Below, piece after piece: positions 1-36,646 of a stretch of 64,000 nt of DNA. The DNA is from an uncultured Pelagibacteraceae bacterium (GTDB lineage Bacteria > Pseudomonadota > Alphaproteobacteria > Pelagibacterales > Pelagibacteraceae). The stretch covers positions 170,261 to 234,260 of the forward strand of contig CACAFC010000001.1 of the NCBI GenBank assembly GCA_902531765.1. The letters run 5' to 3'. The stretch's first letter is position 1. Each line of letters starts with the position of its first letter. The translations under genes and the position numbers were made by a program. The notes beneath the pieces are model-generated. The model worked only from the letters and a program-made list of their open reading frames with translations, did no database searches and was not told the origin of the DNA.

Positions 1-2
1 CA

Positions 3-530
3 AATGATGTTTTTTTTGCATTAAGTCACGGTGTACATAGAGGTCAATTAAAAAGTCGATCTTCTGATGACAGAGAAAAATTCATAAAATCTCTAATTAA
101 TAAATGTAAAAATATAAGGTTTGATATTTTTGGTATGGATAATATTCAACCAATTTGGGCGGATCAATATTTCAAAAATATATCTAATTCAAAAATGGGT
201 CTCAACTTAAGTAGGGGAACACCAATAAAATACTACAGTAGTGATAGAATTACTCAAATTATAGGTAATGGCTTGGTCACATTAATTGATGAAAAAACAT
301 GTTATGGTGATTTTTTTGATGATACAGAGATGGTTTTTTACAAGAATATCAATGATTTATCCGAAAAAATTGAAAAAATTTCAGAGGATGAAAAGTTGCG
401 TAAAACAATTGGACAAAAAGGTAAAAATAAATACATGAAATATTTTAATTCAACACTTGTCGCTGATTTTATTATTAATAAGACCTATGAGATAAATGGT
501 GAAAAAAAATATTTATGGCATAAACCATAG
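3..530 (+). CDS. Glycosyltransferase, GT-B/CgeB-like C-terminal domain (5'-partial)
   Basis: The frame of ORF 135..530 stays open back to position 3 (NDVFFALSHGVHRGQLK...). SKMGLNLSRG...YYSSDRITQIIGNG and 'LRKTIGQKGKNK' fit the Glyco_trans_1_2 pattern. Next to a GT2 and an FkbM gene. Confidence 0.7.
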   Translation, partial: NDVFFALSHGVHRGQLKSRSSDDREKFIKSLINKCKNIRFDIFGMDNIQPIWADQYFKNISNSKMGLNLSRGTPIKYYSSDRITQIIGNGLVTLIDEKTCYGDFFDDTEMVFYKNINDLSEKIEKISEDEKLRKTIGQKGKNKYMKYFNSTLVADFIINKTYEINGEKKYLWHKP

Positions 531-531
531 A

Positions 532-1365
532 ATGATTTCCATATTAATTCCAACTTATAATAATTTAGATTATCTAAAACTATGTTTAAAAAGTTTAGAA
601 AAAAATTCTTCTTTAACCCATGAAATAATTATTCATATTAATAATGGCTCAGATGGCACATTAGATTTTATTAAAGCTAACGATTATAAATATACAAGCT
701 CAGATGATAATATAGGTCTCTGTTCATCAATCAATAAGGCTGCAAAATTAGTTTCAAATAAATATATTCTTTATAGTCATGATGATATGTATTTTTGTCC
801 TAATTGGGATAAAGTTTTATTAGATGAAGTTAAAAGTTTAAATCATGATAATTTCTATCTATCTGGAACAATGATTGAACCTAACTCTGGTCATATAGTT
901 TGTAATTTCGGAGTCGATCTAGATACTTTTAACGAGGATGAGTTATTATCTAAGTTTAAAGATATTAATTTTTATGATCATCAAGGCACTCATTTTGCTC
1001 CACATTTAGTTTCAAAAAAAATGTGGGATAAAGTTAGTGGTTTTAGTGAAGAATTTAACCCTGGTATAGGTTCTGATCCAGATTTTAACATGAAGTTGTG
1101 GAGAGAAGGTGTGAGAATATTTAAAGGTTTAAATGATTTTAAAGTTTATCATTTTGGTTCGTTAACAACAAGAAAGAAAAAGAATTTTATCCAAAATAGA
1201 GGCGACAAAACATTTTTAAAAAAATGGGGTTTTTCCACTAAATTTTTCAAGAAACATTATTTAAAATCTAAATCAAAATATGAAGGACCCTTAAATGAAC
1301 CAAAAAAAACTTTTACCTATTTCTTTGATTTACTAATTTGTAAAATAAGATTATTTTTCATATGA
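532..1365 (+). CDS. Glycosyltransferase family 2
   Basis: ISILIPTYN start motif, SHDD (DxD-like), GSDPDFNMKLW, VYHFGS. The in-frame ATG at 532 is preferred to 496 because it follows the upstream stop at 530. Confidence 0.85.
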   Translation: MISILIPTYNNLDYLKLCLKSLEKNSSLTHEIIIHINNGSDGTLDFIKANDYKYTSSDDNIGLCSSINKAAKLVSNKYILYSHDDMYFCPNWDKVLLDEVKSLNHDNFYLSGTMIEPNSGHIVCNFGVDLDTFNEDELLSKFKDINFYDHQGTHFAPHLVSKKMWDKVSGFSEEFNPGIGSDPDFNMKLWREGVRIFKGLNDFKVYHFGSLTTRKKKNFIQNRGDKTFLKKWGFSTKFFKKHYLKSKSKYEGPLNEPKKTFTYFFDLLICKIRLFFI

Positions 1366-1371
1366 AATTTT

Positions 1372-2067
1372 ATGTCTAAATTAATTGATAAATTAAGTAT
1401 TTTAAAAAAAAAAGTTTATTCCCAAAAAAAAAGTTATTCTTTTGGCGGATGTGATCTACTTATTGAATATATTTTCAAATCAAAAAAAAAAGGTTTTTAC
1501 TTAGATGTTGGATGTCAACACCCAGTATCTAATAATAATACCTATTTACTTTATAAAAGAGGTTGGAGTGGAATAAATATTGATTTAGACCCCAAAAATA
1601 TAAGGTTATTCAATTTAGAAAGACCAAATGATATAAATATTTGTAAATGTATATCTTCAGATAATGCTGAAAAAAATTTATTTTTTTTTCACCCTGGATC
1701 ACCAATTAATTCATTAGAAAAAAAAACTATTAAAGATAAATCAAATTTTTCTTTAAAAAAGATCAAAACATTCACACTTAATTCAATTTTAGAAGATTAT
1801 AAAATAAAAGATATAGATTATTTCAATCTAGACGTTGAAGGACATGAAATTGATATATTAAAAAACTTTGATATCAAATATTACAAACCTAAAGTTATCT
1901 CTGTAGAGTTTATTGATTATCAAATGAAAGAATTAGAGTTTAAAAATAACAATATTGATAGAGTATTACAATCTGATCTTTACAAATATTTTATTTCTAA
2001 TGATTATTATTTTGTTAATTGGTCTCATGCAGATTTAATTTTCGTATATAAAGATTTTAGGAGCTAG
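1372..2067 (+). CDS. FkbM family SAM-dependent methyltransferase
   Basis: YSFGGCD, FYLDVGCQHP..NNT, GWSGINID and IDYFNLDVEGHE motifs. Confidence 0.85.
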   Translation: MSKLIDKLSILKKKVYSQKKSYSFGGCDLLIEYIFKSKKKGFYLDVGCQHPVSNNNTYLLYKRGWSGINIDLDPKNIRLFNLERPNDINICKCISSDNAEKNLFFFHPGSPINSLEKKTIKDKSNFSLKKIKTFTLNSILEDYKIKDIDYFNLDVEGHEIDILKNFDIKYYKPKVISVEFIDYQMKELEFKNNNIDRVLQSDLYKYFISNDYYFVNWSHADLIFVYKDFRS

Positions 2068-3017
2068 ATCTTTATTTTATTTAAAGCATTATTCTTAAAT
2101 ATATTCGCTTCTCTAATATATCTTCTAACCATTTGTGTTGTTTTATGACCCGTCATAGCCATTATACTTCGCTCATCTGCACCAGATTCGGCAGCTACTG
2201 TTGCAAAACCTGACCTTAAACTATGACCAGCAAAATTTTTATTTTCTATACCTGCTAAATTTAAATATTCTTTTATCAATAAAACTACAGATTGATCGGT
2301 TAATCTTTTATCCGTCAATGATGAACCTTTAGAAAATCTTCTAAAAATTGGTCCAGACTTAATTTGAGAAACCTCTAACCATTTTTTTACATTCATGACT
2401 GGACAGTAAATTTCATTGGTGAAGAAGGGTAGTCCCTTGATCATTCCCTCGCCAAATTGATCAGTTTTAGATCTTTTTATAGAAATTTTAAGACCCTCCG
2501 GAACAAATTCTAAATCTTCATGATCAATAGAAATCAGTTCTGTTCTCCTAAATCCACCTCCAAAGCCAATTAGTATTATTGATTTGTCTCTAAGTTTTTT
2601 AATTTCATTAACTTTTTGCTCATCTATTACATTTATAATTAATTTTAAATGATTGATTAATAATGGTTTTTTTCCTTTTTGAATACTTCCTTTGACCCTT
2701 CTTATTCCCATTAAATTTTCAACTATAATTGGATGTTTAGTGTCTAGATAATGCCCTTTCAACTTGTGAACCATACTTATAGATACTAGTCTTCGTCTTA
2801 AAGTGCTTATTTTTGAGTTTTTTGATAAATGTGTAAGGTACAGAGAAACTATTTTTGGTTCAGTTGGCAATGAATTTAAGCCATGCCTTGCACAAAAAGC
2901 TCCAAAGTCTTTAAAATCAGATTTATAAGCTCTCAAAGTGTTATTTGCCTTCGAACTTTTGAGGTTATTTAATGTTGCCTCATGCAATGATTTTAGGTCT
3001 GTTATTAACTCGCTCAT
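2064..3017 (-). CDS. Tyrosine recombinase, Cre-like (N-terminal SAM-like domain plus complete catalytic domain)
   Basis: Catalytic set present: GFRRTEL (R), RSKTDQ (K), GHSLRSG (HxxR), MTGH (H), MVRRYIR (Y). The N-terminus NTLRAYKSD..F..FC...LP..P..V..YL...STLRRRLVSI is typical of Cre-like integrases rather than XerC/XerD. Confidence 0.9.
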   Translation of the reverse strand: MSELITDLKSLHEATLNNLKSSKANNTLRAYKSDFKDFGAFCARHGLNSLPTEPKIVSLYLTHLSKNSKISTLRRRLVSISMVHKLKGHYLDTKHPIIVENLMGIRRVKGSIQKGKKPLLINHLKLIINVIDEQKVNEIKKLRDKSIILIGFGGGFRRTELISIDHEDLEFVPEGLKISIKRSKTDQFGEGMIKGLPFFTNEIYCPVMNVKKWLEVSQIKSGPIFRRFSKGSSLTDKRLTDQSVVLLIKEYLNLAGIENKNFAGHSLRSGFATVAAESGADERSIMAMTGHKTTQMVRRYIREANIFKNNALNKIKI

Positions 3018-3019
3018 AT

Positions 3020-3056
3020 TATTACTATTGATAACAATTAATTATCATTAGTAATA
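3020..3056. other. Putative recombination/binding site: 15-bp inverted arms with a 7-bp asymmetric spacer (lox/dif-like)
   Basis: TATTACTATTGATAA-CAATTAA-TTATCATTAGTAATA. The arms match at 14/15 as reverse complements. It begins 2 bp upstream of the recombinase ATG. Confidence 0.7.
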
Positions 3057-3079
3057 TATCAAGTGATTTTTAATGTCAA
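3051..3079 (-). promoter_or_regulatory. Probable sigma70 promoter of the recombinase
   Basis: Perfect TTGACA at 3079-3074 on the minus strand. The -10 position (about 3058-3051, TATATT/TATTAC) is imperfect and falls in the right arm of the inverted repeat. Confidence 0.45.
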
Positions 3080-3551: not shown

Positions 3552-4009
3552 ACCTATTTTGAAGCTTTTTTTTTAAAAAAAACTAGTAAAATCAATGTTT
3601 TTTGATATTTTTACTTGATTTTCCATAAAATAGTATAATTCACCCTTCAGTTGTACTATATATTAACCTACGCCTAAAATAGACCCCTATATGGCCGTTT
3701 AAATGGTATATTCAGTTAGTGCATCGCTCTACTATTCAACTATATCAACACTTTTAAAACACCCTATTTATTCATGATTTTATATTTTCTGAAGCCTAAA
3801 AAGCCCTGATTTTAAATGATAATTTAATATTTATAGATTTAGTTACTAATTTTAACAAATTAAGCTAAAAAAATTTTTTTTAATCAAATAAAATCATTTT
3901 TAATTGAGTTCTTATAGAAATTAATATCTAATAAATATCTAATAATTACAATGGTTTACATTTTATAATTAATATAATGCTTTAAGTTTTAGTAAATAAA
4001 TAATACCTA

Positions 4010-9298: not shown

Positions 9299-9316
9299 TC
9301 ATTAAACAAACTCGGT

Positions 9317-9371
9317 AGGCATTTGAACTGTATTGTGCGCCTTGCATAAAGCTAAAGCACTAAAAAAGGAG
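9317..9371 (+). ncRNA. SAM-V riboswitch controlling metY translation
   Basis: AGGCAUUUGAACUGUAUUGUGCGCCUUGCAUAAAGCUAAAGCACUAAAAAAGGAG matches the SAM-V pattern (P1 AGGC/GCCU, GUGC/GCAC, 3' AAAAAAGGAG containing the SD), 4 nt before the metY ATG. Confidence 0.93.
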
Positions 9372-9375
9372 TAAA

Positions 9376-35392: not shown

Positions 35393-36646
35393 ATGAAAAA
35401 TAAGTATTCAATATTTTCACTTATTAAAAACGCTTTTTCATATCATGAAAATTGGGAGAAAGCTTGGAAAGATCCTGAACCAAAAAAAGAATATGATGCT
35501 GTAATAGTCGGTGGTGGAGGACATGGTCTTGCAACTGCCTATTATCTAGCAAAAAAACACAATATGAAGAATATTGCTGTTGTTGAAAAAGGTTGGATAG
35601 GAGGAGGAAATACAGGTCGAAATACTACAATAATTAGATCTAATTATTTGTGGGATGCAAGCGCAGGTCTATATGATCATGCTCTTAAAATTTGGGAAGG
35701 TTTATCTCAAGAACTAAATTATAATGTTATGTTTAGTCAAAGAGGGGTTATGAATCTTGCACATAATTTGCAAGATGTTAGAGATTTAAAAAGAAGAACT
35801 CACGCGAATAGATTAAACGGTATTGATGCAGTTTATTTAAATACCGAGGAAGTTAAAAAATTTTGTCCAATTATAAATACTTCACAGGATATTCGTTATC
35901 CAGTTTTAGGTGGAACTCTTCAAAAAAGAGCTGGTACAGCTAGGCATGATGCTGTTGCGTGGGGATATGCAAGAGGTGCTGATGAAATGGGTGTGGATAT
36001 AATTCAAAATTGTGAGGTAAAAGGAATTAAAAGAAATGGTGATACGGTTGAAGGAATTGAAACAACTAAAGGATTTATTAAAACAAAAAAAATTGGAGTT
36101 GTAGCTGCTGGTCATTCTAGTGTTATAGCTAATATGGCTGGATTGAAATTACCTTTAGAGAGTAAACCACTTCAAGCTTTAGTGTCTGAACCAGTAAAAC
36201 CGATAATAGATACAGTTGTAATGTCTAACGCTGTTCATGCATATGTTAGCCAATCTGATAAGGGAGAATTGGTTATAGGAGCAGGAACTGATGACTATGT
36301 ATCTTACTCTCAAAAAGGAAGTCATGATATTGTGGAAGGAACTTTAAATGCAATTTTAGAACTATATCCAATATTTAGTAGAATGAGAATGCTTCGTCAG
36401 TGGGGTGGAATAGTTGATATATGTCCTGATGCGAGTCCAATCATAAGTAAAACGTCAATTAAGGGTTTGTACTTTAATTGTGGTTGGGGAACAGGAGGTT
36501 TTAAAGCTACGCCTGGTTCAGGGGATTTATTTGCTCACACAATTGCAAATGACGAACCTCATAAATTAAACGCTGCCTTTAATATAAATAGATTTGTAAG
36601 TGGTGATCTAGTTGATGAACATGGTGCAGCCGCTGTTGCACACTAA
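35393..36646 (+). CDS. soxB: Sarcosine oxidase subunit beta
   Basis: [66 protein letters not shown]. Confidence 0.96.

What the first reader, a model, noticed from the sequence alone, without database searches (positions are those of the whole stretch)
2064..3056. Cre-like recombinase with its own lox/dif-like site: candidate single-enzyme chromosome dimer resolution system in SAR11
Seen: a 317-aa tyrosine recombinase with all catalytic residues (R, K, HxxR, H, Y) and a Cre-type N-terminus. Starting 2 bp upstream of its ATG is TATTACTATTGATAA-CAATTAA-TTATCATTAGTAATA, i.e. 15-bp arms (14/15 symmetric) around a 7-bp asymmetric spacer. No phage, transposon or cargo genes are adjacent. Established: tyrosine recombinase sites are two inverted binding arms around a 6-8 bp asymmetric core (loxP 13-8-13; dif 11-6-11 with an ATAA-N6-TTAT core). 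Single-recombinase systems (XerS/difSL in streptococci, XerH/difH in epsilonproteobacteria, archaeal XerA) use near-symmetric sites, and difSL lies next to xerS. By my alignment the right arm TTATCATTAGT matches the E. coli XerD arm TTATGTTAAAT at 7/11. Inference: this could be a domesticated Cre-like enzyme replacing XerCD in streamlined SAR11, and a possible new Cre/lox-type tool.
Basis: partly seen in the sequence, partly recalled or inferred. Interest (0 to 1): 0.9.

Follow-up and report, generated by a model that had tools for sequence, protein, structure and literature searches.

The report
Cre-type dimer-resolution system in SAR11
SAR11 bacteria, long said to lack the usual machinery for separating fused sister chromosomes, carry one Cre-like recombinase gene beside its own palindromic target exactly where replication ends, and SAR11 phages that have no recombinase of their own carry copies of that target.

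Summary

- **Conservation:** gene 2064-3017 (-) and palindrome 3020-3056 form a cassette found once per genome in nearly all Pelagibacteraceae searched.
- **Position:** the cumulative GC-skew maximum lies 1-2 kb from the site in six genomes of three genera. The gene lies 0.40-0.48 chromosome lengths from dnaA in 25 of 26 complete genomes.
- **No XerCD:** the family shows no XerC or XerD, while a sister family in the same order has both. RecA and FtsK with its gamma domain are present.
- **Protein:** it belongs to none of XerC, D, S, H, A or L. Its predicted fold is closest to Cre (TM 0.70-0.75).
- **Wider family:** it sits inside a large family, partly phage- and plasmid-borne, whose members carry TTCCGATAA-N7-TTATCGGAA near the gene. 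The spacer differs between lineages.
- **Phages:** HTVC106P-type pelagiphages, published as lytic and without integrase, carry the host site with the host's spacer and arm variants, and no recombinase.

Most likely this is a single-recombinase, dif-like chromosome dimer resolution system of Cre type (about 0.7). Published work states that P. ubique has no dif/Xer system. No recombination has been shown experimentally.

The parts
2064..3017 (-). Cre-type tyrosine recombinase gene, 317 aa. By position it is the orthologue of HTCC1062 SAR11_1019, which is annotated 'xerD'.
   Evidence: ORF. PF00589 68.9 bits. Catalytic R157, K184, H265, R268, H291 and Y300 invariant in 21 orthologues. AF2 model pLDDT 81.7. 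Foldseek's 33 best hits are all Cre/Tre, TM 0.70-0.75. It is the only PF00589 hit in the genome.
3021..3034 (.). Arm distal to... (correction: arm next to the ATG), ATTACTATTGATAA on the + strand. This is the promoter-distal arm.
   Evidence: Sequence. Conserved in all 20 orthologous loci. Changes in step with the other arm between lineages.
3035..3041 (.). Asymmetric 7-bp central region, CAATTAA on the + strand (TTAATTG in gene orientation). Presumed strand-exchange region.
   Evidence: TTAATKG is conserved across the family. The same spacer is found in pelagiphage copies. Relatives outside SAR11 have a different 7-bp spacer in each lineage.
3042..3055 (.). Promoter-proximal arm, TTATCATTAGTAAT on the + strand. 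It overlaps the candidate -10 hexamer.
3030..3046 (.). Invariant 17-bp core, GATAA-N7-TTATC.
   Evidence: One exact copy per genome, always next to the gene, in 139 of 151 family genomes. Unique in the own genome.
3051..3058 (-). Candidate -10 hexamers of the recombinase promoter: TATTAC at 3056-3051 with a 17-nt spacer, or TATATT at 3058-3053 with a 15-nt spacer. Both lie inside or at the edge of the outer arm.
   Evidence: Read from the sequence. The position is inferred. The simple promoter scan did not list this pair.
3074..3079 (-). Conserved -35-like TTGACA, 27-28 nt upstream of the inner GATAA.
   Evidence: TTGACA is present at the same distance in all 21 loci. MarineAlpha5 has TTGACT.

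Best explanation
The gene and its adjacent palindrome form a single-recombinase, dif-like chromosome dimer resolution module of Cre type. It replaced XerCD/dif in the ancestor of Pelagibacteraceae.

**Proposed mechanism (inferred):**
1. Two recombinase monomers bind the two 14-bp arms.
2. When RecA-mediated crossing-over has fused the sister chromosomes, the two sister sites are brought together at the closing septum by the FtsK translocase.
3. A tetramer exchanges strands across the 7-bp asymmetric centre, as Cre does at loxP, and returns two monomers.
4. The site sits on the gene's own promoter, with the -10 region inside the outer arm. Bound recombinase therefore probably represses its own synthesis and keeps the level low.

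**Shown here:** conservation, single copy, position at the skew switch, absence of XerCD, presence of RecA and FtsK-gamma, intact catalytic residues, Cre-like predicted fold, family-wide pairing of gene and site, and copies of the site in recombinase-less pelagiphages.

**Inferred:** binding, catalysis, involvement of FtsK, and autoregulation.
For: 1. **Core gene.** 98 of 100 family genomes have a match, mostly a single one. The orthologues form a monophyletic clade with SH-aLRT 99.
2. **Site conserved and single-copy.** It lies directly upstream of the gene in all loci examined.
3. **At the terminus.** The cumulative GC-skew maximum is 975 bp from the site on the own contig, and 914-2071 bp from it in five other genomes of three genera. 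The gene is 0.40-0.48 chromosome lengths from dnaA in 25 of 26 complete genomes. Neighbouring genes differ between genera while the cassette stays.
4. **No XerC or XerD in the family.** The sister family has both.
5. **Partners present.** RecA and FtsK with its gamma domain.
6. **Catalytic residues invariant**, with Cre as the closest fold.
7. **Family-wide pairing.** Relatives in other phyla and in viral contigs keep (T)TCCGATAA-N7-TTATCGGAA near the gene, with lineage-specific spacers. Conserved arms with a free spacer is the pattern expected of a recombination site.
8. **Phage copies.** About 22 IMG/VR pelagiphage contigs and the isolate HTVC106P carry the site, with the host spacer TTAATTG and either host arm type, and no recombinase gene.
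9. **Precedent.** Cre-loxP placed in ter substitutes for XerCD-dif in E. coli and depends on KOPS-guided FtsK translocation (PMC2680272).
10. **Expression.** The HTCC1062 orthologue (SAR11_1019, 'xerD') is induced together with recA (PMC3090418, PMC5069961).
Against: - No experiment shows binding or recombination.
- Gene and site are inseparable, so 'site at the terminus' cannot be told apart from 'gene at the terminus'.
- The site overlaps the promoter, so an operator role alone would explain its conservation next to the gene.
- Cre-type enzymes have no known FtsK control. An uncontrolled recombinase could also make dimers.
- A 7-bp centre differs from Cre's 8.
- G031 places dnaA only 0.14 chromosome lengths from the gene.
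- No convincing KOPS-like polar motif was found.
- Two of 100 family genomes show no gene. Both are multi-contig assemblies.
Confidence: 0.7

Rival explanations
1. The palindrome is only an autoregulatory operator. The recombinase binds it to repress its own promoter, and its real recombination targets lie elsewhere, for instance on incoming phage or plasmid DNA.
For: The site lies between a conserved TTGACA and the ATG, over the likely -10 and transcription start. As a bare palindrome it is within chance expectation.
Against: - No other copy of the site exists in the genomes, so no chromosomal target would be left.
- An operator role gives no reason for the cassette to sit within 1-2 kb of the skew maximum in three genera with different neighbours.
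- The asymmetric spacer is conserved in the hosts and copied by the phages.
- In Cre-type systems, gene-adjacent palindromes are real targets in about half of tested cases (PMC10250229).
- An operator role and a recombination role can coexist.
Confidence: 0.12
2. It is the integrase of a genomic island. The gene abuts a variable block of glycosyltransferase and methyltransferase genes, and it would mediate gain, loss or exchange of that block.
For: GT2 and FkbM genes lie just downstream at window 496-2067. They vary between genomes of the same genus. The wider family is carried by plasmids, phages and multi-copy elements.
Against: - There is only one site per genome, with no second att-like copy bounding an island.
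- In genera g2 and g3 the neighbours are entirely different, yet the cassette is kept.
- The gene is universal and vertically inherited.
- Variable regions commonly collect at termini anyway.
Confidence: 0.08
3. The host enzyme mainly serves phage biology. It would act as an integration or cyclisation factor that the phages depend on, or as a defence that breaks phage genomes. Dimer resolution would be done otherwise or not at all.
For: Pelagiphages without any recombinase carry the site, often in tandem versions matching two host arm types.
Against: - A host gene kept family-wide at the terminus only for the benefit of phages is unlikely.
- Mobile elements that exploit Xer (IMEX) do so in the same way without Xer being 'for' them; LME-1 at the XerL dif site is the example read here (PMC9765430).
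- No integrated prophage was found among 401 genomes.
Confidence: 0.05

Closest known systems
Cre/loxP of phage P1
   Same: - Closest predicted fold, full length, TM 0.70-0.75.
- Best profile score among the references, 51 bits.
- Groups with Cre against all Xer families, SH-aLRT 99, though Cre sits on a long branch.
- The site lies just upstream of the gene; in P1, lox is 430 bp before cre.
- One protein acts on a near-perfect inverted repeat.
- Cre keeps the P1 plasmid monomeric and can replace XerCD-dif in ter.
   Different: - About 19% identity.
- 14-7-14 rather than 13-8-13.
- A chromosomal core gene at the terminus of a free-living bacterium, not a phage gene.
- The site overlaps the promoter.
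XerS/difSL of streptococci and lactococci
   Same: One recombinase. The gene is adjacent to its site at the terminus. It is taken to have been acquired as one module that replaced XerCD (PMC2731167, PMC9765430).
   Different: Unrelated lineage: 40.8 bits on NF003462 against a cut-off of 267, and 17-19 bits with the SAR11 profile.
XerH/difH of Helicobacter and Campylobacter
   Same: A single recombinase with its site near the gene, and a structurally characterised synapse.
   Different: 26-36 bits with the SAR11 profile. Foldseek E 2e-7 against 5e-13 for Cre. A separate clade in the tree.
XerL/dif of Legionellales
   Same: It fills the other gap left by the 2009 survey. It is a single recombinase with long inverted arms at the GC-skew maximum, and it was revealed by a mobile element carrying a dif mimic (PMC9765430). 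That parallels the pelagiphage copies found here.
   Different: No detectable similarity, -1.3 bits. xerL lies more than 400 kb from its dif, or on a plasmid. XerL has been demonstrated experimentally.
XerCD/dif (canonical)
   Same: Same proposed task and chromosomal position. The inner ATAA...TTAT motif resembles dif.
   Different: Two paralogous enzymes and a 6-bp centre. The SAR11 protein scores 71.5 and 58.6 bits against cut-offs of 329.6 and 335.15. XerCD is present in the sister family but not in Pelagibacteraceae.

Membership tests
Tyrosine recombinase superfamily (PF00589) | Catalytic domain match above Pfam's cut-off, with the R-K-H-R-H/W-Y residues | tested here: met
   68.9 bits against a cut-off of 27.1. 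R157, K184, H265, R268, H291 and Y300 are invariant. The alignment to XerA and XerD places them correctly.
XerD (TIGR02225) / XerC (TIGR02224) | Score above NCBIfam's equivalog cut-off | tested here: not met
   71.5 against 329.6, and 58.6 against 335.15. True XerD and XerC of the sister family score 316 and 314.
XerS (NF003462) | Score above the curated cut-off | tested here: not met
   40.8 against 267.
XerA (NF040815) | Score above the curated cut-off | tested here: not met
   68 against 220.
XerH | Sequence and clade membership with H. pylori and C. jejuni XerH | tested here: not met
   phmmer to 5jjv gives E 6e-4. Profile scores are 26-36 bits. XerH lies on the other side of a 99% branch.
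XerL | Detectable homology to L. pneumophila XerL | tested here: not met
   -1.3 bits, E 0.75. The sequence was taken from Table S3 of PMC9765430.
Cre-type recombinases | Cre-like two-domain fold including the five-helix N-terminal domain | tested here: met
   The 33 best Foldseek hits are Cre or Tre over about 320 columns, TM 0.70-0.75. The model has five N-terminal helices. This rests on a predicted model of pLDDT 81.7.
Cre-type recombinases | Clade with Cre in a sequence tree | tested here: inconclusive
   SH-aLRT is 99 for {Cre + family}, but Cre sits on a branch of length 2.96 and the program warns of long-branch joins.
Cre-type recombinases | lox-type target: 13-bp inverted arms around an 8-bp spacer | tested here: not met
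   14-bp arms around a 7-bp spacer, here and throughout the wider family.
dif/Xer chromosome dimer resolution systems (functional class) | Site is single-copy, non-coding, about 30 bp, partly palindromic, and at the cumulative GC-skew maximum with varying flanking genes | tested here: met
dif/Xer chromosome dimer resolution systems (functional class) | The recombinase is necessary and sufficient for recombination at the site, and its loss gives filamentation | not testable with these tools
   Needs excision assays and genetics.
dif/Xer chromosome dimer resolution systems (functional class) | Coupling to FtsK | tested here: inconclusive
   FtsK with its gamma domain is present. No clear polar motif was found. 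No interaction could be tested.

The most novel reading that the evidence does not exclude
SAR11 resolves chromosome dimers with a domesticated Cre-type recombinase, which would make a seventh kind of Xer-like system. In addition, an abundant group of pelagiphages (HTVC106P type, GOV VC_67), published as strictly lytic and without integrase, depends on this host enzyme.

These phages carry tandem mimics of the host site, matched to the two arm types of SAR11 lineages and placed beside the small terminase gene. They would use them in one of two ways:
- to integrate at the host terminus, as IMEX elements do; or
- to cyclise and monomerise their headful-packaged genomes, as P1 does with its own Cre and lox.
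Probability: 0.4. Interest if true: 0.85.

Novelty: new variant of a known kind. Interest (0 to 1): 0.78.

Why it matters
- **It reverses a published conclusion.** Pelagibacter was the textbook free-living exception said to have lost dif/Xer through genome streamlining (PMC2731167). If this reading is right, the most abundant bacteria in the ocean did not lose dimer resolution. They swapped two enzymes for one of Cre type.
- **A natural version of a laboratory experiment.** Replacing XerCD-dif with Cre-loxP was previously done only artificially in E. coli.
- **A precise terminus marker** for SAR11 genomes.
- **A new recombinase-target pair.** It defines a large, uncharacterised Cre-type family with a simple target (TTCCGATAA-N7-TTATCGGAA) and a freely variable 7-bp spacer. 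Published screens for new recombinase tools looked only at 8-bp spacers and would have missed it (PMC10250229).
- **A testable phage question.** It raises the possibility that pelagiphages regarded as purely lytic exploit a host recombinase.

Tried and rejected
- **KOPS-like polar motifs converging on the site.** Some G-rich words are skewed (AAGAGGG 27:5 and 19:2), but this cannot be separated from GC skew and gene orientation. Inconclusive.
- **Integrated HTVC106P-type prophages next to the cassette.**
  - A portal search of 401 family genomes found only G017, on two small separate contigs, and a weak hit in G123.
  - No SAR11-type recombinase occurs in IMG/VR contigs.
  - The apparent double site in G137 is a 99% identical contig overlap.
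- **Exact HTVC106P site variant** (CCGATATTAATCGTTATCGG) in 185,579 species genomes: no hit.
- **Secondary core matches.** The nine 1-mismatch matches I inspected in SAR11 genomes all lack the outer arms and look like chance.
- **Statistical weight of the palindrome alone:** rejected as evidence.
rejected as evidence.
- **Simple promoter scan.** It did not list the TTGACA/-10 pair, so the promoter assignment rests on conservation only.
Full report
**What is there.**
The window is G000:C1:170261-234260, from a 1.05-Mb SAR11 assembly of 29% G+C in 25 contigs, 91.6% complete.

On the minus strand, 2064-3017 encodes a 317-aa protein. It matches PF00589 at 68.9 bits and, weakly, the SAM-like N-terminal domain PF02899.

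The arms pair at 14 of 15 positions.

As a bare palindrome this is unremarkable. The genome holds six of equal quality, and Markov-1 simulations give 0-6. Its significance comes from position and conservation.

**Conservation.**
- A PF00589 search of 100 further genomes of the same GTDB family found a match in 98. It is usually the only one, at about 70 bits in a 325-aa open frame.
- I fetched twenty of these loci from five genera. All encode full-length orthologues, 52-83% identical.
- All twenty carry the palindrome directly before the start codon, preceded at a fixed distance by TTGACA.
- R157, K184, H265, R268, H291 and Y300 are invariant.
- The 17-bp core GATAATTAATKGTTATC occurs in 139 of 151 family genomes, beside the gene. 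All extra hits carry one mismatch. The nine I inspected lack the outer arms, and their number is about what the reversed control pattern gives. One apparent duplicate is a contig overlap.
- In the own genome nothing else comes within 8 mismatches of the 37-mer.
- Two arm types exist: ACTAAC/ACTATT-GATAA in most Pelagibacter, and TTCC-GATAA in other genera. Left and right arms switch together.
- The asymmetric centre TTAATGG/TTAATTG is kept throughout.

**Position.**
- On the own contig the cumulative GC skew rises for 172 kb and then falls. Its maximum is 975 bp from the site.
- I took 80 kb around the cassette from five complete genomes of three genera. The skew changes sign at the site in every one, and the maximum is 914-2071 bp away.
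- In 25 of 26 complete genomes the gene lies 0.40-0.48 chromosome lengths from dnaA (coordinates). G031 is an exception at 0.14, though its local skew still flips at the site.
- The cassette occurs in either orientation relative to the replichores.
- Its neighbours are conserved within a genus but wholly different between genera. The unit that stays at the terminus is therefore gene plus site.

**What is missing and what is present.**
- The own genome has no other tyrosine recombinase.
- No family genome shows hits of XerC/XerD strength. Their extra hits are of 80-94 bits in 340-357-aa frames and look like phage-type integrases.
- All 20 genomes of a sister family in the same order have two hits of 133-163 bits. 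In the one checked, these score 316 bits on the XerD model and 314 on the XerC model. The method therefore does find XerCD in equally A+T-rich relatives.
- RecA is present, so crossovers between sister chromosomes are expected.
- FtsK is present with its gamma domain.

**What kind of enzyme.**
- It fails every curated Xer model: XerD 71.5 against 329.6, XerC 58.6 against 335.15, XerA 68 against 220, XerS 40.8 against 267.
- I took reference sequences from Table S3 of PMC9765430 and Cre from the P1 record. The SAR11 profile scores Cre best at 51 bits, XerH at 26-36, XerS at 17-19 and XerL at -1.3.
- An AlphaFold2 model (pLDDT 81.7) finds Cre and its engineered derivative Tre as its 33 best PDB matches. 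These are full length, with TM 0.70-0.75 and E down to 5e-13. XerA, XerH and the integron integrase follow at about 1e-7.
- In a tree, Cre and this family stand together against XerC, D, A, H, S and L (SH-aLRT 99). Cre's branch is long, so this needs caution.

**The wider family.**
- A profile search of 1.84 billion representative proteins gives 4277 hits below 1e-30.
- The nearest non-SAR11 relatives are 37-44% identical over their full length and are annotated only as 'site-specific integrase'.
- They occur in Acidobacteriota, Armatimonadota, Bacillota, Chloroflexota, Myxococcota and Alphaproteobacteria, and on an Alicyclobacillus plasmid. They also occur in viral contigs.
- SAR11 is a single clade within this family. 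Its sister is a protein of the marine MAG MarineAlpha5_Bin12.
- That MAG has ATTACTTCCGATAA-CATACAA-TTATCGGAAGTAAT right before the ATG, and no XerCD-strength hit.
- Many distant relatives, including viral ones, have (T)TCCGATAA-N7-TTATCGGAA 0.05-0.9 kb upstream, with a different spacer in each lineage.
- Conserved arms, a fixed 7-bp distance and a free spacer are what a recombination target looks like. The pairing is clearly older than SAR11.

**Phages.**
- A scan of IMG/VR for the exact 17-bp core returned 33 contigs.
- About 22 of them also have the outer arms of one of the two host types and the host spacer TTAATTG. One group shares about 34 bp with the Pelagibacter-type site.
- None of the 33 loci encodes a tyrosine recombinase.
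- They are related to one another. They encode small and large terminase, portal, protease and major head protein. They are 75% identical to Pelagibacter phage HTVC106P.
- The same phage type assembles repeatedly as circularly permuted contigs of about 36.4 kb. The site lies between terS and terL.
- HTVC106P has no annotated integrase, but it does have LexA-like and HTH regulators. Its authors concluded it is lytic (10.1101/2019.12.14.876532).
- HTVC106P carries TTCCGATA-TTAATCGT-TATCGGAA at 35411-35436, next to a Pelagibacter-type half-site.
- Most of these phages carry two adjacent versions: one with the host spacer, and one with the other arm type and a different spacer.
- I found no integrated copy, so integration is unproven.
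- An alternative use fits the position beside terS. The phage could cyclise or monomerise a headful-packaged genome with the host enzyme, as P1 does with its own Cre. This analogy is from my own knowledge of P1.
- Either use requires that the host enzyme recombines this sequence. This is the same kind of clue that led to XerL (PMC9765430).

**Literature.**
- I found no paper that assigns a dimer resolution system to SAR11.
- A 2026 preprint simply calls SAR11 recombinases XerC and XerD by annotation.
- The HTCC1062 orthologue is SAR11_1019, annotated xerD. I assign it by gene order, because metY (SAR11_1030) lies eleven genes away, as in this window. Its mRNA rises together with recA in the light and in sulfur-limited stationary phase (PMC3090418, PMC5069961).
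- Cre-loxP in ter can replace XerCD-dif in E. coli. It needs no activation by FtsK but depends on KOPS-guided translocation (PMC2680272).
- A screen for Cre-type tools found that gene-adjacent palindromes are true targets in about half of the cases tested. It searched 8-bp spacers only (PMC10250229).

**Verdict.**

The best explanation is a single-recombinase dif-like system of Cre type, with probable autoregulation through the promoter-overlapping site (confidence about 0.7).

The rivals are an operator-only role, an island integrase, and a phage-serving factor. Each explains part of the data, but none explains the terminus position together with universality and the single copy.

It is a new variant of a known kind of system. 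It is unproven at the bench but directly testable.

Noticed in passing
L143-L175 (IMG/VR contigs); L176:35360-35440 (HTVC106P); L197:6427-6698: HTVC106P-type pelagiphages have no recombinase gene but carry the SAR11 site between terS and terL. It is usually present as two adjacent versions matching the two host arm types. Only one version has the host spacer TTAATTG.
   Followed up: partly
L045:3178-3212; L047-L126; L180-L192: A very large family of roughly 320-aa Cre-type recombinases, spread across many phyla, plasmids and viral contigs, keeps (T)TCCGATAA-N7-TTATCGGAA near the gene, with lineage-specific spacers. One MAG locus (L070) has two such sites, 945 bp apart, just downstream of the gene.
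   Followed up: partly
G031:C1:622170-702169 (L034-L037): In this complete genome dnaA is only 0.14 chromosome lengths from the cassette. A second skew reversal lies about 30 kb to its left. This suggests a rearrangement or a misassembly.
   Followed up: no
window 2064-3056 compared with L002-L021: The own recombinase (genus g1) is 78-83% identical to those of four loci from genomes labelled g5 and g2, but about 70-75% identical to those of the other g1 genomes. The spacer variant (TTAATTG or TTAATGG) follows the protein clade rather than the genus label. This may reflect exchange of the terminus cassette within SAR11.
   Followed up: partly
window 1-2067: Glycosyltransferase (GT2) and FkbM methyltransferase genes lie directly downstream of the recombinase. 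They differ between genomes of the same genus. A variable cell-surface gene block therefore abuts the replication terminus.
   Followed up: partly
window 3552-4009: A 458-bp gene-free tract lies between the MGMT-like DNA-binding gene and the EamA transporter gene. A gap of similar size is kept in other g1 loci (about 540 bp in L002). No Rfam family matches it at E 0.01 or better.
   Followed up: partly
window 9308-9374: SAM-V riboswitch (RF01826, 86.4 bits) upstream of metY.
   Followed up: partly
G017:C25 and C22 (L177; L179:1222-1256): One SAR11 assembly holds HTVC106P-like phage DNA on two small contigs (portal 65% identical). Next to the terminase region is a degenerate site-like sequence, ATTACTTCTGATAA-TTTATCA-TTACCGCTAAC.
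   Followed up: partly
G000:C3:32866, C6:52338, C20:632: Three other 15-nt-arm palindromes with 7-bp centres occur in the genome. C6 reads TAATATAACTTCCGG-TTGCGGA-CTGGAAGTTATATTA. Their nature was not examined.
   Followed up: no
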